The notes under the pieces were generated by a model. That model saw only the letters and a list, made by a program, of their open reading frames with translations, did no database searches and was not told the DNA's origin. Positions 5,192-14,616 of a DNA stretch of 64,000 bases are shown piece by piece (the stretch's first letter is position 1; the number at the start of each line of letters is the position of its first letter). Location: sequence record OL631482.1, one strand, 5' to 3'. The DNA comes from Escherichia phage ECML-359. Made by a program: the position numbers and the translations under genes.

Positions 5192-5619
5192 TGTTTATTA
5201 TCCCTGATGATTACGAATTAACTCTTGAAAACATTGAAAGTGTTTCCGAAGAAGCTCAGGGACAATTTGATTCATTATCTGAAGCTTTAGAAAAAGACGA
5301 TATAAATATTATTGTAGAAAACATGTTTGCAGCTGGTGAATATGAAAAAGCAACGGTTATCGGCGCGCTGAATGAAGGTGTTCAGCTTAACGAATTTATC
5401 GTTAAACATGTATCGTCTCGCGGTGAGTTAACCCGCACAAAAGACCTAGCTACTCGTAAGCGTAATGCTTTCCAAACAACTGGTCTTTCTAAAGCTAAAC
5501 GTCGTCAAATTGCCCGTCTGGCTACTAAAACAAAAAGAGCAAACCCATCTACGCAAATCAGAGCAGAGCGCAAGCGCAAAAAAGCTCGAGCTAAGCGTAA
5601 AGCATTCGGACTTGATTAA
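5191..5619 (+). CDS. 68: Prohead core protein gp68
   Basis: 142 aa, basic C-terminus; overlapping stop/start with neighbours; T4 position. Confidence 0.7.
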
Positions 5620-6257
5620 TGGAACAGAAACCAGAGTTACTAATCGAACACTGGGGTCAACCGGGCGAAATTAAAGATGGTGTACCGATGTTGGAATCTC
5701 ATGATGGTTCCAGCACCGGTTTAAAGCCAGGACTTTATATTGAAGGTATTTTCCTACAAGCTGAAGTTGTTAACCGTAATAAACGACTTTATCCTAAACA
5801 TATTTTGGAAAAAGCCGTTGCTGATTATATGACAGAACAGGTTGCTACTAAACAAGCTTTAGGAGAATTAAATCATCCGCCCCGTGCTAACGTCGACCCT
5901 ATGCAAGCCGCTATTATTATTGAAGATATGTGGTGGAAAGGTAATGATGTATATGGCCGCGCGCGTATTATCGAAGGCGACCATGGCCCAGGTGATAAAC
6001 TTGCTGCAAATATAAGAGCAGGTTGGATTCCAGGTGTATCTAGTCGTGGACTTGGTTCCTTGACTAAATCAGCAAAAGGTTATAGCATCGTTAATGAAGG
6101 TTTTAAATTGACGGTTGGAGTAGATGCAGTATGGGGGCCAAGTGCTCCGGACGCTTGGGTCAAACCAAAGCAGATTACAGAATCACAAACGGCAGTTGCC
6201 GATACCAGTGCCGATGACGCCTTTATGGCTCTCGCAGAGGCTTTAAAGACGTTATAA
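5619..6257 (+). CDS. 21: Prohead core protease gp21
   Basis: 212 aa, same length as T4 gp21; synteny. Confidence 0.9.
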   Translation: MEQKPELLIEHWGQPGEIKDGVPMLESHDGSSTGLKPGLYIEGIFLQAEVVNRNKRLYPKHILEKAVADYMTEQVATKQALGELNHPPRANVDPMQAAIIIEDMWWKGNDVYGRARIIEGDHGPGDKLAANIRAGWIPGVSSRGLGSLTKSAKGYSIVNEGFKLTVGVDAVWGPSAPDAWVKPKQITESQTAVADTSADDAFMALAEALKTL

Positions 6258-7129: not shown

Positions 7130-8689
7130 ATGAAAAAGAATGCATTAGTTCAAAAATGGTCCGCTCTGCTGGAAAACGAAGCTCTTCCGGAAATCGTTGG
7201 TGCTTCTAAACAAGCTATCATCGCTAAAATCTTTGAAAACCAGGAACAAGATATTCTGACCGCTCCTGAATACCGTGACGAAAAAATCTCCGAAGCATTT
7301 GGTTCTTTCCTGACCGAAGCTGAAATCGGTGGTGACCATGGTTATGATGCTACCAATATCGCTGCTGGCCAGACCTCTGGTGCAGTAACTCAGATTGGGC
7401 CGGCAGTTATGGGTATGGTTCGTCGTGCTATCCCGCATCTGATTGCGTTTGATATTTGTGGCGTACAGCCTCTGAACAACCCGACTGGCCAGGTATTTGC
7501 CCTGCGTGCAGTTTACGGTAAAGACCCTGTAGCTGCTGGTGCTAAAGAAGCTTTCCACCCGATGTATGCTCCAAATGCTATGTTCTCTGGTCAGGGCGCT
7601 GCTGAAGCTTTCGAAGCTCTGGCTGCAAGCAAAGTTCTTACCGTTGGTAAAATTTATTCTCACTTCTTCGAAGCAACCGGTGCCGCGCACTTCCAGGCTG
7701 TTGAAGCTGTAACCGTTGATGCTGCTGCTACTGATGCCGCTAAACTTGACGCCGAAGTTACCAAACTGCTCGAAGCTGGTAAGCTGGCCGAAATCGCTGA
7801 AGGTATGGCTACCTCTATCGCCGAATTGCAGGAAGGCTTCAACGGTTCTACTGATAACCCGTGGAACGAAATGGGCTTCCGTATCGATAAACAAGTTATC
7901 GAAGCTAAATCTCGTCAGCTGAAAGCAAGTTACTCCATCGAACTGGCACAGGACCTGCGCGCTGTTCACGGTATGGATGCTGATGCCGAATTGAGTGGTA
8001 TTCTGGCTACCGAAATTATGTTGGAAATCAACCGCGAAGTTATCGATTGGATTAACTACTCCGCACAGGTTGGTAAATCTGGTATGACCAACACCGTTGG
8101 CGCTAAAGCTGGTGTGTTTGACTTCCAGGACCCGATTGATATCCGTGGCGCTCGTTGGGCTGGTGAAAGCTTCAAAGCTTTACTGTTCCAGATTGATAAA
8201 GAAGCCGCTGAAATCGCTCGTCAGACTGGCCGTGGTGCAGGTAACTTCATCATCGCTTCCCGTAACGTAGTTAACGTACTGGCTGCAGTTGATACCTCCG
8301 TATCTTATGCTGCTCAGGGTCTGGGTAAAGGTTTCAACGTTGACACCACTAAAGCTGTGTTCGCTGGTGTTCTGGGTGGCAAATACCGTGTATACATCGA
8401 CCAGTATGCTCGTGCAGACTATTTCACCATCGGTTACAAAGGCGCTAACGAAATGGATGCTGGTATCTACTACGCACCATATGTTGCACTGACCCCGCTG
8501 CGTGGCTCTGACCCGAAAAACTTCCAGCCGGTTATGGGCTTCAAAACCCGTTACGGTATCGGTATTAACCCGTTCGCTGACCCGGTAGCTCAGGCTCCGA
8601 CTAAGCGCATTCAGAACGGCATGCCAGACATCGTTAACAGCCTCGGCTTGAACGGTTACTTCCGCCGCGTATATGTTAAAGGAATTTAA
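7130..8689 (+). CDS. 23: Major capsid protein gp23
   Basis: 519 aa; long stretches identical to T4 gp23 as I recall it (e.g. GDHGY.ATNIAAGQTSGAVTQIGPAVMGMVRRAIP, PKNFQPVMGFKTRYGIGINPFA, YFRRVYVKGI C-terminus). Confidence 0.97.
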   Translation: MKKNALVQKWSALLENEALPEIVGASKQAIIAKIFENQEQDILTAPEYRDEKISEAFGSFLTEAEIGGDHGYDATNIAAGQTSGAVTQIGPAVMGMVRRAIPHLIAFDICGVQPLNNPTGQVFALRAVYGKDPVAAGAKEAFHPMYAPNAMFSGQGAAEAFEALAASKVLTVGKIYSHFFEATGAAHFQAVEAVTVDAAATDAAKLDAEVTKLLEAGKLAEIAEGMATSIAELQEGFNGSTDNPWNEMGFRIDKQVIEAKSRQLKASYSIELAQDLRAVHGMDADAELSGILATEIMLEINREVIDWINYSAQVGKSGMTNTVGAKAGVFDFQDPIDIRGARWAGESFKALLFQIDKEAAEIARQTGRGAGNFIIASRNVVNVLAAVDTSVSYAAQGLGKGFNVDTTKAVFAGVLGGKYRVYIDQYARADYFTIGYKGANEMDAGIYYAPYVALTPLRGSDPKNFQPVMGFKTRYGIGINPFADPVAQAPTKRIQNGMPDIVNSLGLNGYFRRVYVKGI

Positions 8690-8712
8690 TCCTAGATTAA
8701 GTTAAATAAAAA

Positions 8713-8740
8713 GGGACCCTTGAGGTCCCTTTCTTGTTTT
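8713..8740. terminator. Bidirectional intrinsic terminator between gene 23 and the opposite-strand ORF
   Basis: GGGACC-cttga-GGTCCC hairpin flanked by an A-run upstream and a T-run downstream. Confidence 0.8.
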
Positions 8741-9021
8741 CATACCATACCATTTAAATGAACTTCTACCCGGCGCTTGATGAGGTCTCTGAAGTTAACA
8801 TTGTTTTCTTGAAGTTTCAACCAGTTACCATTTTTATCTTTAGTGTGAGTAGAATAATTACCATTCCACCAGAAATCAGTGTCATATGCTAAGTTTTCAT
8901 ATTTTTTAACTAGTTTGTTCAGAGCATTACCATTAACACCATTTGGGTATTTGTTGACCAATGCAATAACTTCAATTTCCAATTTTTTAAAGGTGTTCAG
9001 AAGGAAAGTTGCTTTGTTCAT
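8740..9021 (-). CDS. Hypothetical protein, 93 aa, opposite-strand insert between genes 23 and 24
   Basis: Minus-strand ORF flanked by a bidirectional hairpin terminator (8713-8740) and an early-type promoter with conserved leader (about 9040-9092); no motif recognised. Confidence 0.5.
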   Translation of the reverse strand: MNKATFLLNTFKKLEIEVIALVNKYPNGVNGNALNKLVKKYENLAYDTDFWWNGNYSTHTKDKNGNWLKLQENNVNFRDLIKRRVEVHLNGMV

Positions 9022-9049
9022 TTTTAAACTCCAGGTTTTGTTTGTTAAC

Positions 9050-9092
9050 TCAGTATGGAATCATTATGTCTTATCTTAATCTGGTTGTAAAC
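9050..9092 (-). promoter_or_regulatory. Early-type sigma70 promoter (GTTTAC, 18 nt, CATAAT) with conserved leader
   Basis: Minus strand reads GTTTACaaccagattaagataagaCATAATGATTCCATACTGAGTTA upstream of ORF 8740-9021; coordinates approximate. Confidence 0.6.
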
Positions 9093-9098
9093 AACTTT

Positions 9099-9106
9099 TA
9101 TAAATA
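9099..9106 (+). promoter_or_regulatory. Late promoter for gene 24
   Basis: TATAAATA about 27 nt upstream of the gp24 ATG. Confidence 0.75.
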
Positions 9107-9132
9107 AAGTATATCACAAAAGGAAAGCGCAA

Positions 9133-10413
9133 ATGGCAAAGATTAACAAATTACTGCGCGAGTCAACTATTACTACCAGCAACTCCTTGGGCCGCCCGAA
9201 TCTTGTTGCTTTGACCCGCGCTACGACTAAATTGATTTACCGCGATATCATCGCTGAACAACGTACTAACCAACCTGTTGCTGCACTGTATGGTGTTAAA
9301 TATCTTACTCCTGATAACGAATTCAGTTTCCAGACGGGCGCTACTTATGGAGGTGAAGTCGGTTCTAAAGACCGTACAACTATTCCAGAATTAGCTACAG
9401 CCACTCAGCCTGTTGCTAAAGGCGAATATGTAAAATACCAAAATATCGTTTACAAAGCTCTGGTTGATAATCCATTTGCATCGACCACAGAAACAGTGTT
9501 ATCTGATGTTCTGCAAGAAGGTCTTATTGCATCGACTATTCGTTTAGTTCCTGATGCTGCACACACCGAAAAATTCGAAGCTGGTGATGTTGAAATTAGC
9601 AATGCTGTATTCCAGGTTAATAAATGGAATGCTCCGGTTAAAACACGTAAATTGAAAACTGCATTAACTGTTGAACTTGCTCAGGATATGGAAGCAAATG
9701 GTTTTAACGCTCCTGCATTCTTGGAAGACCTGCTTGCCACTATTATGGCAGATGAAATTAACAAAGATGTTCTTCAGTCTCTTATTACCGTTTCCAAGCG
9801 TTATAAAGTAACTGGTGTTTCTGACAATGGCACCATCGATTTAACATACGATGCAGCCCCAGAAGGTGCACGTAAACTGTACGAACTGGTTTGCGAAATG
9901 AACTCCGAAATTCAGAAAACTACATCTTATTCCGGTACCTTTGTTGTTGCCTCTAGCCGTGTTGCTGCTATGTTGGCCGGTTCTGGTTGGTTGAAACACA
10001 GGCCAGAAGACGAACAGTGGCTCCCCGAAACAGCGTACGGTTATTTGATTAATGGCCTCCCTGTATTCTGTGATGTTAACAGTCCATTGGATTATGTAAC
10101 TGTTGGTGTTAAAGAAAATTACGGCGGAAACGAAGTCGTAGGCTCAATTTTCTATGCTCCTTATACCGAAGGCCTGGACTTGGATGATGAAGAGCACGTT
10201 GGTGCGTTTAAGGTCATTGTGGACCCAGACAGCTTGCAGCCATCTATCTCTCTGATGGTTCGTTACGCACTTTCAGCTAACCCGTACACCGTTGCTAAAG
10301 ACGATAAAGAAGCTCGTATTATCGATGCAACCAATATGGATTTAATGGCCGGTCAGAGCAATATGTCTTATCTGCTCGGTGTTAAACTTCCGCCAATCAT
10401 TTATGAGGCGTAA
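9133..10413 (+). CDS. 24: Capsid vertex protein gp24
   Basis: 426 aa; N-terminus MAKINKLLRESTITTSNSLGRPNLVALTRATTKLIY closely matches T4 gp24 as recalled; TATAAATA at about 9099-9106. Confidence 0.9.
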   Translation: MAKINKLLRESTITTSNSLGRPNLVALTRATTKLIYRDIIAEQRTNQPVAALYGVKYLTPDNEFSFQTGATYGGEVGSKDRTTIPELATATQPVAKGEYVKYQNIVYKALVDNPFASTTETVLSDVLQEGLIASTIRLVPDAAHTEKFEAGDVEISNAVFQVNKWNAPVKTRKLKTALTVELAQDMEANGFNAPAFLEDLLATIMADEINKDVLQSLITVSKRYKVTGVSDNGTIDLTYDAAPEGARKLYELVCEMNSEIQKTTSYSGTFVVASSRVAAMLAGSGWLKHRPEDEQWLPETAYGYLINGLPVFCDVNSPLDYVTVGVKENYGGNEVVGSIFYAPYTEGLDLDDEEHVGAFKVIVDPDSLQPSISLMVRYALSANPYTVAKDDKEARIIDATNMDLMAGQSNMSYLLGVKLPPIIYEA

Positions 10414-11697
10414 ATGCAAAAGATTAATGCACTAATTCACGAATCAACATTAACGGCGGCCAACCAGGTCGCCCGTCCTAATTTGCTTTCTTATACCCAG
10501 GCTACGAATAAACGAATTTTTAAAGCACTCGTGGCCGAACAGAAAACTACCCAGCCTGTTGCAGCCCTGTATGGTGTTCGTGTTCTGAACCCAGATGATA
10601 AAATGACTTATCTCGGTGGAGCAACATTTGCAGGTCAGATTGGTATGTTCGAGCGTAAGAATATTCCAGAATTTACAAACAAAGACGAAGCTTATGCAGT
10701 CGGCGATATGTTCCAGTTTGAAAGTGTTGTGTTCAAAGTTTTGGAAGCATCCCCATTCGCCGGTACACTCGAAACTGATTTAGGTGAAGTTATTTCTGAA
10801 GCCATTGCTGCTGGGCATATAAGAATGATGTCAGATGCTGCTTTCACTGATAAATTTGAAAAGGGGCATCCTGAAATTGCTGAAGCTGGTTTTCGTATCG
10901 ATAAATGGCAGACTGAAGTTAAATCCAGAAAGTTGAAAACTTCTTTAACTGTCGAGCTTGCCCAGGACCTGGAAGCAAACGGTTTTGATGCAACAGACTT
11001 CATCGATAATATTCTCGGCATTCAAATGGCAGAGGAAATTAATAAGGATGTACTGCAATCTCTTATTACTGTTAGTTCCCGTTTCAAGGTGCAAGGTGTT
11101 TCTGAAAAAGGTGTATTGAATCTTACTGACCCGAAATATGATAACGCACAGGACCGCGCACGAACCCTGTATTATTATATGTGTGAAATGAATTCTGCAG
11201 TTCAACGTCAGACTTCGTTTGCTGGTACATATGCAGTTGCTTCTTCCCGTTGTGCAGCTATTTTAGCCGCTTCTGGCTGGGTTGAGAAAAAGGAAGACCA
11301 GGATGAATTGGCCTATGGTGTTCTGAAGAACGGTTTGCCTCTTTACGCTGATATGAATAGTCCATGCGATTATGTTATTGTTGGTGTAAATGCAGATATG
11401 GGTGAAGGTCAGACGGTCGCATCTTTATATTATGCGCCTTATACGGAAGGACTTAGCGAAGTTGATGATGAGGGGGATACCTCGGTTGGGGAATTCAAGG
11501 TTATTGTTGACCCTGAAAGCTTACAGCCTACGGTTGCACTGTTAGCTCGTTATGCTTTGACTGCAAACCCTTACACCGTTGCTAAAGATGATAAAGAAGC
11601 TCGCCTTATTGATGGAGCTGATATGGATAAGATGGCTAACCAAAGCCAATTGAGTTCTTATCTTGGCGTTAAACTTCCACCGCTGGAAAAAGAATAA
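10414..11697 (+). CDS. Second, divergent gp24-like capsid vertex paralog
   Basis: 427 aa, starts one nucleotide after the stop of the first gene 24; clearly alignable to it (MQKINALIHESTLTAANQVARPNLLSYTQATNKRIF..., shared LQSLITVS, TANPYTVAKDDKEARLID) but diverged. Confidence 0.85.
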   Translation: MQKINALIHESTLTAANQVARPNLLSYTQATNKRIFKALVAEQKTTQPVAALYGVRVLNPDDKMTYLGGATFAGQIGMFERKNIPEFTNKDEAYAVGDMFQFESVVFKVLEASPFAGTLETDLGEVISEAIAAGHIRMMSDAAFTDKFEKGHPEIAEAGFRIDKWQTEVKSRKLKTSLTVELAQDLEANGFDATDFIDNILGIQMAEEINKDVLQSLITVSSRFKVQGVSEKGVLNLTDPKYDNAQDRARTLYYYMCEMNSAVQRQTSFAGTYAVASSRCAAILAASGWVEKKEDQDELAYGVLKNGLPLYADMNSPCDYVIVGVNADMGEGQTVASLYYAPYTEGLSEVDDEGDTSVGEFKVIVDPESLQPTVALLARYALTANPYTVAKDDKEARLIDGADMDKMANQSQLSSYLGVKLPPLEKE

Positions 11698-11720
11698 GGG
11701 CCTTGCGGCCCTTTTTTATT
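11698..11720 (+). terminator. Intrinsic terminator after the gp24 paralog
   Basis: GGGCC-ttgc-GGCCC followed by TTTTTTATT. Confidence 0.8.
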
Positions 11721-12723
11721 CACTAATTAATGCAATCCATACATGTCTTAATGTTTCTTTTACATTTGCGATAAGTTGCTTTTTAACTTCAACAGGATTT
11801 TCTGTCTGGGTTAATTCAAGTCCTTCACGACCCGCTTCTTCCAGGATATCCTGAACAGTCAAACCCATTACCTTCCCAAAATCCTTCGGCGATACTTCCC
11901 CAATCTTACTGATAACATTGTTAATACGGTTGACAGTCACATAATCAGTAAACTTCCATAAAACATCCAGGTCTTCCTGGGACAACACAACAGCAGCCTT
12001 AATAGGCTTATCAGACTTTTTCTTTTCGCTGAATTTAGAGTTCTTACATTTAATCGCTACACGCTCGCCGTTAGGTAACCATGCAGGAACATCAGGTTTT
12101 AATACAAATCCTTCAGCAGTGAATACTTTACCTTCCACCTTTGCATCAAAATCAGTGGTATTTGCTGTAGTCAATCCTGCGTTATCCACTGTAAAATTGT
12201 AATCAGGGACCACAGAATCCAGGTCATTAGGGAGCTTAATCAAGTCTTCAAAGCTTCCGGTAGCCAGGCGCGGAGCAACTTTAAACTTATGAATAATACA
12301 AAAGGCTTCCATCAGTGTGTCAGTCAGGACGGATTCAGTTCCATCTTCTTTAGTAACGCGAATATCAAACACATAAAAATCTTTATCACCGTAATCCACA
12401 TTCTTCTGGATACCTGCCCCGGCAAACTCACCATAAATCTGATATGCCTGGTAATTAATATCCTGCAAAAGTTTCTGCACAGATTTAATAGAATCTGCGT
12501 AGTTCTTTAATACAATTTCATAACCATAGAAATCTTCTGCAGGTAGGATAGGTCCAGTGCGTTTCGCGCATGTCACATTGTCTTGTTCAATGATTAATGA
12601 AAAGTTGGTACCATGAATTTTCTCACGAGCTACCCATTCACCGCTGGTGAAGCCTTGCAGGCGAATCTTTTCAATGAACTTGTTATTATAGTGATTTTCA
12701 AGGCTGTTGTATTTCTTAAACAT
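11716..12723 (-). CDS. rnlB: RNA ligase 2 (RnlB)
   Basis: 335 aa; [19 protein letters not shown]...[10 protein letters not shown] (nucleotidyltransferase lysine motif KxHGxN) matches T4 Rnl2 as recalled. Confidence 0.9.
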
Positions 12724-12853: not shown

Positions 12854-13117
12854 TCAGAATTTTACATACAGCATTGGCTTGGATTCTTGCCAATCATAAT
12901 TCCAGGTAAAAGATGTAAATTTTTCTGCTCGCAGAAATTCAGATATCTTTGCGCGGTTTCCTTCTTCATACTCTTTTTCAGAAACTGCCATATTAACAGC
13001 ATCTTTGCCGTTCTCGGCGGCGGCAATAGCCACTTTGCGAAATATAGAAATAAAGTCATTTGCAACTTTATCTTGTGACTCTTTGGCTATTTGGCGTAGT
13101 TCTTCTGCGAATGTCAT
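12854..13117 (-). CDS. Hypothetical protein (T4 24.2 position)
   Basis: 87 aa minus-strand ORF between hoc and rnlB; overlaps next ORF by 4 nt. Confidence 0.5.
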   Translation of the reverse strand: MTFAEELRQIAKESQDKVANDFISIFRKVAIAAAENGKDAVNMAVSEKEYEEGNRAKISEFLRAEKFTSFTWNYDWQESKPMLYVKF

Positions 13118-13317
13118 TTCTTCACCTTTTTGTTATTCAAACGTTTACGATAAACAATCTTTTCTTTCGCTTTAAATTTAGCTTTGGCTTGTTCTACATC
13201 AACCCAGGCCTTTGCCATCTCTTTAGCAGTCCCGCCTAATACCTTGGCGATTTCAATAAATGTCATACCAGATTCATGCAGAAAATGTACTTTAACCTTA
13301 TCCATAATGATTCTCAT
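13114..13317 (-). CDS. Hypothetical small basic protein, possible helix-turn-helix (T4 24.3 position)
   Basis: 67 aa; segment MTFIEIAKVLGGTAKEMAKAWVD resembles an HTH; lysine-rich C-terminus. Confidence 0.5.
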   Translation of the reverse strand: MRIIMDKVKVHFLHESGMTFIEIAKVLGGTAKEMAKAWVDVEQAKAKFKAKEKIVYRKRLNNKKVKK

Positions 13318-13451
13318 GTTGAGTTAGTGAAGCTATCTTAACATGGAATTTTTAACTTGTAAACATGATTTTTATGCCAGATGAACAATTGCATGGTATG
13401 GTCACAAAGACTCACTAGAGAAGGGTCCAGGTAACATTTGCCCAGTACCAT

Positions 13452-13480
13452 AAAAATAAAGGGACCAAAGGTCCCTTTTT
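13452..13480. terminator. Bidirectional intrinsic terminator downstream of hoc
   Basis: GGGACC-aaa-GGTCCC flanked by A-run and T-run. Confidence 0.75.
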
Positions 13481-13482
13481 AA

Positions 13483-14616
13483 TTAATAAACGTAATCGTA
13501 TATAATACCAGTTTCTAAAGCGGTGCGATGAATAACTCGACCATTACGAGATTCTTGTACATCAACCTCTGGATAGTCGGTAATCATTTTTTGAAGTGTG
13601 TATCGGTGCAAATAATACGGGCTATCCGGGTCATCAGTTTTCCAGTCTTGGCCGGCAAGAGTCATTTTCTGAATTTCATCCATAACCCACCAACCACACC
13701 AGATATAAGCTGAATTACGTACTGGCAATGGGTGAATATATGGTAATTCGCCATCTGGAACTGGTGCGACTTTAGCCGTGACTGTTACATTACCAGTTTT
13801 GGTAACGGTTACAGGGTTATAATCTGTAGCAGATACAACAACAGAAACTTCAATTAACTGGGAACCTTCGGCGCTTGTATCGATTGCTAAAGTATCCGTG
13901 GTACCAGCGACTGGTGAACCATCTTTCTTCCAAGAATAGGCAAAAGTAGCACCAGCAGGCGCACCGGCTACAGTAGCTTTAAAAGAAGCCGGAGTTCCTT
14001 CAGGAACATTAATAGAGGTCGGTGCTAAAGTAACAGAAACACCCGACATAGTTTTCTTAACAAAAGTTACCGCAGCTCCTTTAGATGCGGTGCCATTATT
14101 ATAATCGGGTGCAGAAACAGTAACTTCACAGTTCAATGTATAATTTGCTTCTGCTGATTCGGTGACGGTAATAGTTTTACCAGTTTGACCTGCGATTACG
14201 CTAGTGTTACGTTTCCAAACGTAAGCGATTGTTGCACCAGAAGGAGCGCCTGTCACGTTAGCAGTAACAACTTGAGATTGCCCCACTTCTTTAGTAACAG
14301 AGGCAGGGTCTAAAGTCAATGTAATAGCAGGCATTGTTTTATTCTGGATAGTTAAAGTTGTCTCAGCCTCAGCAGTTTCCGGTTCACCGTCTGCCGGAGT
14401 GGTAGTTGCAACAACTTTAATAGTCTTACTGCCTGCTGGGCCAACAGCGACATAAGTCATTGCTGCAGTCACAGAAGATTGAGGAACGCCATCAACGGTC
14501 CATACAAATGATTCAACACCTTCAGCTGCAGCGCCAGACCCGGTTGCAGTGAAATTGGTTGTTGCTCCAATAACGGCCGTAGCCGCCAAAGGAGCAATAG
14601 CTACGGTATAAGCCAT
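13483..14616 (-). CDS. hoc: Highly immunogenic outer capsid protein Hoc
   Basis: 377 aa; C-terminal part near-identical to T4 Hoc as recalled (NPVTVTKTGNVTVTAKVAP...YIWCGWWVMDEIQKMT...YYLHRYTLQKM); repeated Ig-like segments. Confidence 0.9.
   Translation of the reverse strand: MAYTVAIAPLAATAVIGATTNFTATGSGAAAEGVESFVWTVDGVPQSSVTAAMTYVAVGPAGSKTIKVVATTTPADGEPETAEAETTLTIQNKTMPAITLTLDPASVTKEVGQSQVVTANVTGAPSGATIAYVWKRNTSVIAGQTGKTITVTESAEANYTLNCEVTVSAPDYNNGTASKGAAVTFVKKTMSGVSVTLAPTSINVPEGTPASFKATVAGAPAGATFAYSWKKDGSPVAGTTDTLAIDTSAEGSQLIEVSVVVSATDYNPVTVTKTGNVTVTAKVAPVPDGELPYIHPLPVRNSAYIWCGWWVMDEIQKMTLAGQDWKTDDPDSPYYLHRYTLQKMITDYPEVDVQESRNGRVIHRTALETGIIYDYVY

What the first reader, a model, noticed from the sequence alone, without database searches (positions are those of the whole stretch)
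9133..11697. Tandem duplication of capsid vertex gene 24
Two full-length gp24-like genes (426 and 427 aa) sit back to back, the second starting 1 nt after the first stops. The first is close to T4 gp24; the second is clearly homologous but much more diverged. T4 has a single gene 24, and gp24 is itself an ancient duplicate of gp23. A second vertex paralog raises the question of whether both are incorporated into capsids (mixed or specialised vertices) or whether one is a decaying copy. Both ORFs are intact and full length.
Basis: partly seen in the sequence, partly recalled or inferred. Interest (0 to 1): 0.55.

Follow-up and report, generated by a model that had tools for sequence, protein, structure and literature searches.

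The report
Known paired capsid vertex genes
This T4-like phage carries two intact, back-to-back versions of the capsid corner (vertex) protein gene; the pair is old, conserved and already annotated in over a hundred related phages, but nobody appears to have shown what the second copy does.

Summary
ORFs 9133-10413 (426 aa) and 10414-11697 (427 aa) abut. They are 55% identical to each other, and 69% and 55% identical to T4 gp24.

The arrangement is not new. The window is a Gaprivervirus (99% identical to phage TH40). The same pair is annotated as 24a/24b in JS98, 24(1)/24(2) in VR7 and vertex protein I/II in VR20. A copy-2-type gene occurs in 116 phage records, and six genera among the loci fetched carry the pair. 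In all 31 pair loci examined both ORFs are intact, and copy 1 lies directly upstream of copy 2.

It is not a recent duplication. The copies were never sister groups in 1,400 bootstrap trees, and copy 1 groups with T4 gp24.

It is not a decaying copy. Both have dN/dS of 0.02-0.07, and copy 2 is slightly lower.

The genes form one late operon: one TATAAATA promoter, a -4 to +1 nt junction with an embedded Shine-Dalgarno sequence, and one terminator. Both keep the invariant Glu10/Ser11 maturation site.

Paralogue-specific residues are enriched (p = 1e-4) in the N-arm and I-domain linker 1, which tie neighbouring subunits of a pentamer together. The hexamer-facing periphery is almost unchanged.

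My best reading is two co-expressed vertex subunits that probably form separate pentamers. Virion incorporation is untested.

The parts
9099..9106 (+). T4-type late promoter motif TATAAATA, 26 nt upstream of the copy-1 start codon
   Evidence: The same motif sits at the same position in all 10 pair-bearing phages. None lies inside copy 1, and there is no other + strand TATAAATA until 12743.
9120..9127 (+). Shine-Dalgarno region AAGGAAAG for copy 1
   Evidence: Read from the sequence. AAGGAAAG or GAGGAAAG is present in 9 of 10 related phages; Cronus has AAGAGAGAAG.
9133..10413 (+). Copy 1 (426 aa): orthologue of T4 gp24 capsid vertex protein (= 24a / 24(1) / vertex protein I)
   Evidence: 69% identity to T4 gp24. 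phmmer E = 2.8e-193 to 1YUE. Pfam PF07068. Groups with T4/Mosigvirus/Karamvirus gp24 in 70-94% of bootstraps. dN/dS 0.03-0.07 in unsaturated pairs.
9133..9162 (+). Copy 1 residues 1-10 (MAKINKLLRE), the propeptide removed in T4 gp24 by the gp21 prohead protease (cleavage after Glu10)
   Evidence: Identical to T4 at 9 of 10 residues. Mature T4 gp24* chains in the PDB start at residue 11. PMC9546572 states that 10 N-terminal residues are cleaved. Cleavage in this phage is inferred.
10405..10408 (+). GAGG Shine-Dalgarno for copy 2, embedded in the last codons of copy 1, 5 nt before the ATG
   Evidence: GAGG in 7 of 10 pair-bearing phages; F48, Marfa and Cronus have GAG only. Gene gap is -4 to +1 nt in all, which suggests translational coupling (inferred).
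10414..11697 (+). Copy 2 (427 aa): ancient second gp24 paralogue (= 24b / 24(2) / vertex protein II)
   Evidence: 55% identity to T4 gp24 and to copy 1. E = 4.3e-148 to 1YUE. Pfam PF07068. AF2 model best matches in-capsid T4 gp24, 5VF3_a, TM 0.79/0.81. Monophyletic clade (92%; 100%). dN/dS 0.02-0.05 in unsaturated pairs. In all 31 pair loci examined copy 1 lies directly upstream; this was an open test for the 21 loci retrieved with copy-2-type queries.
10414..10443 (+). Copy 2 residues 1-10 (MQKINALIHE) with a retained [L/I]-x-E|S maturation-site context
   Evidence: E10 and S11 are invariant in 48 gp24 homologues of both types. I8 and L7 are invariant within the copy-2 clade while positions 2-6 and 9 vary. 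Cleavage itself is inferred.
11698..11717 (+). Intrinsic-terminator-like hairpin GGGCC-TTGC-GGCCC followed by TTTTTT, closing the two-gene late unit; it overlaps the 3' end of rnlB on the minus strand
   Evidence: Read from the sequence. An equivalent hairpin follows copy 2 in 9 of 10 related phages.
7130..8689 (+). Context: gene 23 major capsid protein (519 aa), the more distant paralogue of both copies
11716..12723 (-). Context: rnlB RNA ligase 2, the conserved downstream neighbour of gene 24 in T4 and relatives

Best explanation
The two ORFs are a conserved bicistronic late operon encoding two ancient paralogues of the T4 capsid vertex protein. Copy 1 is the orthologue of T4 gp24. Copy 2 is a second vertex-type subunit under equal constraint. 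Shown: both are intact in every pair locus examined, both are under strong purifying selection, and they have co-diverged across at least six phage genera. They share one late promoter and one terminator, are joined by a -4 to +1 nt junction with an internal Shine-Dalgarno sequence, and keep the invariant Glu10/Ser11 maturation site. Copy 2 is predicted to have the gp24 fold, with the same flexible segments as T4 gp24. Inferred: both are made together late in infection, enter the prohead, are trimmed by the gp21 protease and sit in the gp23 lattice as vertex capsomers. The hexamer-facing periphery (I-linker 2, the strands after it, the spine helix, the C-terminal third) is almost unchanged between the paralogues. 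Fixed paralogue-specific residues concentrate in the N-arm (T4 aa 21-40) and I-domain linker 1 (aa 56-81). In T4 these two elements pair between neighbouring subunits of one pentamer. I therefore think the two proteins most likely assemble into separate homopentamers that share the eleven non-portal vertices, either at random or by position. Rough probabilities: about 0.75 that both are functional head structural proteins; about 0.35-0.4 that they form separate homopentamers.
For: Coordinates and homology. Breadth: a copy-2-type gene is in 116 phage records. The tandem pair is annotated in Gaprivervirus, Dhakavirus, Gelderlandvirus, Kanagawavirus, Marfavirus and Roskildevirus. 17 of 17 IMG/VR loci and 4 of 4 deep metagenomic loci have copy 1 directly upstream of copy 2. 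Both ORFs are intact in 31 of 31 loci. Selection, unsaturated pairs, dN/dS copy 1 / copy 2: WIN-VR7 0.040/0.029; CIP9-Kos305 0.028/0.022; F48-Marfa 0.068/0.042; IME08-Bp7 0.059/0.054. Co-divergence: the copy-2 clade is monophyletic with internal branching that mirrors copy 1. Operon layout is conserved in 10 phages (window). E10/S11 are invariant in 48 homologues. No gene conversion: the longest shared nucleotide run is 17 nt, and codon identity at identical residues is about 0.5 in every segment. Diagnostic sites: 48 columns are fixed differently in the two clades. 14 of 26 comparable columns differ in aa 21-40 plus 56-81, against 34 of 197 elsewhere (Fisher OR 5.6, p = 1e-4). Roles of these segments in T4 are taken from PMC9546572: aa 26-29 beta-pair with an I-domain linker of the adjacent subunit in the same pentamer; linker 1 is stabilised by intracapsomer contacts; aa 11-20 and linker 2 contact hexamers. 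AF2 model of copy 2: pLDDT 72, low confidence at 1-33, 67-74, 153-157 and 348-359. These overlap the segments (11-20, 60-81, 143-154, 348-359) reported disordered in at least one T4 gp24 structure. Best PDB match is in-capsid T4 gp24.
Against: There is no direct evidence that copy 2, or even copy 1, is in the virion of any pair-bearing phage. No proteomic, genetic or cryo-EM data were found in the searchable literature, and the PDB holds only T4 gp24. The JS98 genome paper (PMC2168658) is not held, so published virion data may exist that I could not read. In T4 one gp24 fills all 11 vertices without notable conformational differences (PMC9546572), so geometry does not demand two proteins. The interface argument rests on T4 contacts transferred by homology and on approximate domain boundaries. 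Enrichment of diagnostic sites in flexible linkers could partly reflect relaxed constraint at the time of divergence. Diagnostic sites also occur in the central aa 223-347 region (21 of 76 columns), whose contacts I could not resolve. Codon adaptation to gp23 usage is slightly lower for copy 2 (0.42 vs 0.49), which is uninformative on stoichiometry.
Confidence: 0.62

Rival explanations
1. Mixed vertices: copy 1 and copy 2 co-assemble within the same pentamer as heteropentamers of fixed or variable composition. The paralogue-specific N-arm and linker-1 residues would then form complementary copy1-copy2 contacts.
For: Tight translational coupling is conserved across six genera and is typical of subunits that assemble together. 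Diagnostic sites lie in the elements that contact the neighbouring subunit, which a co-evolved hetero-interface would also predict.
Against: Five-fold symmetry cannot accommodate a regular alternating heteromer. A heteropentamer would contain both like and unlike interfaces, so a clean fixation of different residues in both partners of the contact is less expected. There are no data either way.
Confidence: 0.2
2. Copy 2 is functional but is not a stoichiometric vertex component. It could be a conditionally used alternative vertex protein (for a different host, temperature or stress), an assembly factor that is later lost, or a decoy against host defences that sense capsid proteins.
For: T4, Mosigvirus, Karamvirus and Jiaodavirus manage with one gp24. 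VR-type phages were isolated as low-temperature phages (my recollection of the literature, not checked here). Strong purifying selection shows function but not which function.
Against: There is no separate promoter, and the junction is coupled in every genus, which argues against conditional expression. The protease site is retained, and the hexamer-facing periphery is nearly unchanged. The full gp24 fold is predicted. All of these fit a lattice-embedded subunit. Both copies are retained in phages of six host genera.
Confidence: 0.12
3. Recent, lineage-specific tandem duplication of gene 24 in this phage group, with copy 2 then diverging rapidly. This is the reading suggested by the finding's title.
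For: The two genes are adjacent, of equal length and in the same orientation. At 27 of 48 diagnostic sites the single-copy gp24s agree with copy 1, as accelerated change in copy 2 would predict.
Against: Copy 1 plus copy 2 are never monophyletic (0 of 1,400 bootstrap trees under three distance corrections and three column sets), whereas copy 1 groups with T4/Mosig/Karam gp24 in 70-94%. At 11 diagnostic sites distant outgroups share the copy-2 state, against 12 for copy 1. The pair has co-diverged through six genera, with copy 2 as conserved as copy 1. Synonymous sites between the copies are saturated.
Confidence: 0.03
4. Copy 2 is a redundant, decaying duplicate.
For: None beyond its lower identity to T4 gp24.
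Against: It is intact in 31 of 31 loci. Its dN/dS is 0.02-0.05 in unsaturated pairs, lower than copy 1. 297 of 462 alignment columns are conserved in at least 9 of 10 copy-2 sequences, against 284 for copy 1. Its start, Shine-Dalgarno sequence and terminator are conserved.
Confidence: 0.02

Closest known systems
T4 gp24 capsid vertex protein (PDB 1YUE, 5VF3, 7VS5/7VRT, 8GMO)
   Same: Same length (426-427 aa), same locus (after gene 23, before rnlB), same late promoter motif, same Glu10|Ser11 maturation site, same Pfam family. Copy 1 is 69% and copy 2 is 55% identical over the full length. The copy-2 model superposes on in-capsid gp24 with TM 0.79.
   Different: T4 has one gene and one protein at all 11 non-portal vertices. 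Here there are two co-expressed paralogues, with fixed differences concentrated in the N-arm and I-linker 1.
Annotated 24a/24b pair of phage JS98/IME08 (Dhakavirus) and 24(1)/24(2) of vB_EcoM-VR7 (Gaprivervirus); 'capsid vertex protein I/II' of VR5/VR20/VR25/VR26/CJ20
   Same: This is the same feature. The window's region is 92-99% identical in DNA to Gaprivervirus records. Copy 1 is 97% and copy 2 is 98% identical to the VR7 proteins, and 89% and 96% to IME08. The junction, promoter and terminator are identical in layout.
   Different: Nothing material. The window is simply another isolate or contig of this group.
The gp23/gp24 paralogy itself (a vertex specialist derived from the major capsid protein), and gp24-bypass mutations in gene 23
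   Same: Another round of duplication and specialisation inside the same capsid-protein family. Divergence again maps to intracapsomer contacts; the bypass-24 substitutions lie at subunit interfaces in the capsomer (PMC9546572).
   Different: gp23 and gp24 are about 21-29% identical, differ in length and propeptide, and have known distinct positions (hexamers vs pentamers). Copy 1 and copy 2 are 55% identical, equal in architecture, and have unknown positions.

Membership tests
T4 gp24 capsid vertex protein family | Full-length sequence similarity to T4 gp24, clearly closer than to gp23 | tested here: met
   Copy 1 69% and copy 2 55% identity over about 424 aa, against 28-29% to gp23 over about 250 aa. 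phmmer E = 2.8e-193 and 4.3e-148 to 1YUE.
T4 gp24 capsid vertex protein family | Pfam PF07068 (Gp23/gp24 capsid family) above the gathering threshold | tested here: met
   329 and 327 bits against a cut-off of 24.4. PHROG 138, head and packaging.
T4 gp24 capsid vertex protein family | HK97-type fold with the T4-specific insertion domain and linkers | tested here: met
   AF2 model of copy 2 (pLDDT 72, pTM 0.67). Top Foldseek hits are T4 gp24 5VF3_a (TM 0.79/0.81), 7VRT and 1YUE, then gp23 at about 0.55. Copy 1 was not modelled; it is inferred from 69% identity.
T4 gp24 capsid vertex protein family | Short N-terminal propeptide cleaved after Glu10 by the gp21 prohead protease | tested here: inconclusive
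   The site context is present and E10/S11 are invariant in 48 homologues (N-termini). A gp21 homologue is encoded at 5619..6257. Actual cleavage cannot be tested with these tools.
T4 gp24 capsid vertex protein family | Late gene located directly downstream of gene 23 in the head-gene cluster | tested here: met
   The order gp21-gp22-gp23-(small ORF)-copy 1-copy 2-rnlB matches VR7 and T4. TATAAATA at 9099-9106.
T4 gp24 capsid vertex protein family | [quoted passage not shown] | not testable with these tools
   Needs virion proteomics or cryo-EM. No solved structure of a pair-bearing phage exists in the PDB copy.
Known 24a/24b tandem vertex-gene pair (JS98-, VR7-, S16-, CIP9-, Marfa-, Cronus-like phages) | Copy 1 orthologous to 24a / 24(1) and copy 2 orthologous to 24b / 24(2) | tested here: met
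   Each copy falls in its respective clade. Copy 2 is 100% identical to TH22, UPEC07 and vB_YenM_P8.
Known 24a/24b tandem vertex-gene pair (JS98-, VR7-, S16-, CIP9-, Marfa-, Cronus-like phages) | Same orientation, -4 to +1 nt junction, single upstream late promoter, terminator after the second gene | tested here: met
   for 10 phages; for the window.

The most novel reading that the evidence does not exclude
The two paralogues form distinct homopentamers that occupy geometrically different vertex classes of the prolate head, for example the apical vertex opposite the portal versus the ten shoulder vertices, or the portal-proximal versus the distal ring. This would make these phages the first HK97-lineage capsids known to use position-specific penton proteins. 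My evidence is compatible with it: a paralogue-specific intrapentamer interface, a shared hexamer-facing periphery, strict co-expression and long co-retention. It does not demonstrate it.
Probability: 0.2. Interest if true: 0.65.

Novelty: already known. Interest (0 to 1): 0.28.

Why it matters
As a discovery it matters little. The paired vertex genes have been annotated in public records such as JS98 (24a/24b) and VR7 (24(1)/24(2)), and a copy-2-type gene recurs in at least 116 phage genomes. The JS98 record dates from about 2007 by my recollection.

As a biological question it has modest value. T4 is the reference system for prolate-head assembly, and there one gp24 suffices for all vertices. 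A large group of close relatives, including Dhakavirus, Gelderlandvirus and Gaprivervirus, has kept a second, equally constrained vertex-type protein through a long co-divergence. That means the second protein does something the first cannot.

If the two occupy different vertices, this would bear on how a prolate capsid distinguishes its caps from its shoulders, and on capsid stability engineering for phage display or therapy. The question is directly testable with routine virion mass spectrometry and vertex-focused cryo-EM.

Tried and rejected
1. Literature. All ten full-text searches, plus targeted reading of papers on F48, Marfa, Kosakonia 305, Yersinia gapriverviruses, Tevenvirinae genomics and the T4-relatives review, found no statement on the function or virion presence of the second copy. 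The JS98 genome paper (PMC2168658) and Chen et al. 2017 are not held.

2. PDB. Only T4 gp24 and gp23 chains match. There is no capsid from a pair-bearing phage.

3. Gene conversion between the copies. Rejected: the longest shared nucleotide run is 17 nt, and synonymous codon identity is uniform at about 0.5.

4. Stop-codon read-through fusion. The two ORFs are in frame in the window, VR7 and IME08, but the frame relation differs in the other genera. Rejected as a conserved mechanism.

5. A gp23 tree as a species proxy, to count gains and losses. The deep nodes are unresolved (20-59% support), so I cannot decide between ancient duplication with several losses and import of copy 2 from an unsampled lineage.

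6. A copy-2-type gene occurring alone. None was found in the 21 loci retrieved with copy-2-type queries from IMG/VR and metagenomic contigs.

7. Codon adaptation as an expression proxy. The difference is small and uninformative.

8. My first tree script timed out. It was replaced with a faster NJ implementation. No maximum-likelihood program was available.
Full report
**Observation**

The window contains ORF 9133..10413 (+, 426 aa) and ORF 10414..11697 (+, 427 aa). The TAA stop of the first (10411-10413) is followed directly by the ATG of the second. The two proteins align end to end at 55% identity and 75% similarity, E = 1e-172. Copy 1 is 69% identical to T4 gp24 and copy 2 is 55% identical. 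Each is 28-29% identical to the C-terminal ~250 residues of the upstream gp23-like major capsid protein at 7130..8689. Both hit Pfam PF07068 at about 328 bits. T4 has one gene 24 at the equivalent locus. The description is therefore accurate.

**Identity of the window and prior knowledge**

Megablast of 8700-11800 finds 90 phage records. The best is Escherichia virus TH40 (99.0%), followed by Yersinia phage vB_YenM_P8 (98.9%) and the VR7/VR20/VR25/VR26 group at 92-94%. That places the window in genus Gaprivervirus (taxonomy).

These records already annotate the pair:
- '24(1)' and '24(2)' in VR7
- '24a' and '24b' in JS98 and IME08
- 'capsid vertex protein I/II' in VR5, VR20, VR25, VR26 and CJ20

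tblastn with copy 2 at E <= 1e-175 finds a copy-2-type gene in 116 records. I fetched representatives, and all carry the tandem pair at the same locus:
- Dhakavirus: IME08, Bp7
- Gelderlandvirus: Salmonella phage S16
- Kanagawavirus: Enterobacter CIP9, Kosakonia 305
- Marfavirus: Klebsiella F48, Marfa
- Roskildevirus: Erwinia Cronus

Single-copy lineages include T4, Mosigvirus, Jiaodavirus, Karamvirus, Acinetobacter phages, Krischvirus, Slopekvirus, Muldoonvirus and a Vibrio phage.

In IMG/VR, 17 of 17 loci with a copy-2-type gene have copy 1 directly upstream. The most divergent copy-2-like proteins in the large protein collection (68-69% identity) also sit in gp23-copy 1-copy 2 tandems on metagenomic contigs. 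Both ORFs are intact and 422-432 aa long in all 31 loci.

**Age and origin**

In a neighbour-joining tree of 30 gp24 homologues, all copy-2 proteins form one clade. Support is 92% and 100% in the replicate analyses. Its internal order is Cronus, then Marfavirus and Kanagawavirus, then S16, Dhakavirus and Gaprivervirus. This mirrors the copy-1 clade, the pattern expected from one old event followed by co-divergence.

Copy 1 groups with the single gp24 of T4, Mosigvirus and Karamvirus in 70-94% of bootstraps. Copy 1 plus copy 2 are never monophyletic: 0 of 1,400 replicates across three distance corrections and three column sets. At 48 columns fixed differently in the two clades, close single-copy proteins agree with copy 1 at 27 and with copy 2 at 7. 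Distant outgroups split 12 to 11. The split is therefore at least as old as the radiation of these genera.

Where copy 2 attaches is unresolved. It pairs with Jiaodavirus gp24 in 38-61% of corrected-distance replicates. A gp23 tree is too poorly resolved to count losses. Both an ancient duplication with several losses and an old lateral acquisition remain possible.

**Selection**

In comparisons where synonymous sites are not saturated, Nei-Gojobori dN/dS values for copy 1 and copy 2 are:

| Pair | Copy 1 | Copy 2 |
|---|---|---|
| Window vs VR7 | 0.040 | 0.029 |
| CIP9 vs Kosakonia 305 | 0.028 | 0.022 |
| F48 vs Marfa | 0.068 | 0.042 |
| IME08 vs Bp7 | 0.059 | 0.054 |

Copy 2 is at least as conserved as copy 1 between genera in most comparisons. 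Against IME08, identity is 96% for copy 2 and 89% for copy 1. Against Marfa it is 78% and 73%, and against Cronus 67% and 64%. Only in the Kanagawavirus comparison is copy 1 slightly more conserved (about 82-83% against 81.5%).

There is no gene conversion. The longest shared nucleotide run is 17 nt, and at identical residues the same codon is used about half the time in every segment. The 'decaying copy' option is excluded.

**Expression anatomy**

- A T4 late-promoter motif, TATAAATA, lies at 9099-9106. It is 26 nt before the copy-1 ATG and is followed by AAGGAAAG.
- There is no further + strand TATAAATA until 12743.
- GAGG at 10405-10408, inside the last codons of copy 1, precedes the copy-2 ATG by 5 nt.
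- A GC-rich hairpin plus T-run follows copy 2 at 11698-11717.

The same layout holds in all ten annotated phages: one promoter, none inside copy 1, a junction of -4 to +1 nt and an embedded GAGG or GAG. A hairpin follows copy 2 in nine of the ten. The two proteins are thus made from one late transcript, probably with translational coupling (inferred).

**Signs of a structural role**

In T4 the prohead protease removes the first 10 residues of gp24 (PMC9546572). Mature PDB chains begin at residue 11. Glu10 and Ser11 are invariant in 48 homologues of both types. In copy 2 the [L/I]-x-E|S context is kept although neighbouring positions vary.

An AlphaFold2 model of copy 2 has pLDDT 72 and pTM 0.67. 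Its low-confidence stretches are 1-33, 67-74, 153-157 and 348-359. These overlap the segments (aa 11-20, 60-81, 143-154, 348-359) that PMC9546572 reports as disordered in at least one T4 gp24 structure. The model's best PDB match is in-capsid T4 gp24 (5VF3_a, TM 0.79/0.81), well ahead of gp23 at about 0.55.

**Where the paralogues differ**

223 alignment columns are conserved in at least 9 of 10 sequences of both clades. Of these, 175 carry the same residue and 48 carry different ones. Differences are rare in I-linker 2 (1 of 6), the strands after it (2 of 20), the spine helix (2 of 24) and the C-terminal third (5 of 45). They are frequent in T4 aa 21-40 (7 of 14) and aa 56-81 (7 of 12). The combined enrichment gives Fisher OR 5.6, p = 1e-4.

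According to PMC9546572:
- aa 26-29 of gp24* form a parallel beta interaction with an I-domain linker of the adjacent subunit in the same pentamer.
- Linker 1 is stabilised by intracapsomer contacts.
- aa 11-20 and linker 2 contact neighbouring hexamers.

Both paralogues therefore keep the surface that docks into the gp23 lattice, and each has its own version of a subunit-to-subunit clasp within the pentamer. This is an inference by homology with approximate domain limits. It favours separate homopentamers over random mixing but does not exclude heteropentamers.

**What is not known**

All ten literature searches and targeted reading found nothing on the function or virion presence of copy 2. 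The JS98 genome paper is not in the library. No capsid of a pair-bearing phage is in the PDB. In T4 all 55 gp24* subunits are alike, so geometry alone does not require a second protein.

**Verdict**

The feature is real, ancient, conserved and clearly functional, but it is already annotated in many genomes. It counts as known rather than novel. The residual interest is the untested role of the second vertex paralogue. The sequence evidence here supports a concrete, cheaply testable hypothesis: two co-expressed, protease-matured vertex subunits, probably in separate pentamers.

Noticed in passing
window 8740-9021 (- strand): A 93-aa ORF of unknown function (PHROG 6003, E = 9e-47; no Pfam hit) sits between gene 23 and copy 1. 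VR7, IME08 and Bp7 carry a 282-nt minus-strand ORF at the same position. T4 has homing-endonuclease ORFs at this position, and IME08 has segD plus this ORF.
   Followed up: partly
window 13318-13482 (between 24.3 at 13114-13317 and hoc at 13483-14616, both - strand): The window lacks about 2.3 kb that VR7 carries here: ORF196w (collagen-repeat protein) and ORF197w (Hoc-like). An alignment shows the window running from the 24.3 side straight into the hoc 3' end.
   Followed up: partly
whole window: TATAAATA occurs 20 times against 4.45 expected from shuffles. This is consistent with T4-type late promoters and could be used to map late transcription units.
   Followed up: no
L003 5006-6193; L010 4827-6342; L045 4890-6427; L048 5326-6841; L009 4820-5611: The slot just downstream of copy 2 is variable. 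IME08 has a tail-fibre-like gene. Cronus and three metagenomic relatives have a ~340-aa plus ~165-aa gene pair, annotated in Cronus as tail fiber protein plus Hoc-like head decoration. Marfa has a 263-aa hypothetical protein. In the window rnlB follows directly.
   Followed up: no
L011 3501-4781 (Klebsiella phage JIPh_Kp122, Jiaodavirus): The single Jiaodavirus gp24 is 63.5% identical to both copies. By my tally of the table, it is copy-1-like at most of the N-arm and linker-1 diagnostic sites and copy-2-like at many central sites. It groups with copy 2 in 38-61% of corrected-distance bootstraps. This could mean hidden paralogy (differential loss) or a near-ancestral sequence.
   Followed up: partly
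window 10411-10416: Copy 1 and copy 2 are in the same reading frame (TAA then ATG), so stop read-through would give an 854-residue fusion. The same holds in VR7 and IME08, but the frame relation differs in the other genera, so it is probably incidental.
   Followed up: yes
window 13483-14616 (- strand): The Hoc-like protein (377 aa) shows an internal repeat visible in the translation: '...GAPSGATIAYVWK...' and '...GAPAGATFAYSWK...'. This is consistent with tandem Ig-like domains.
   Followed up: no
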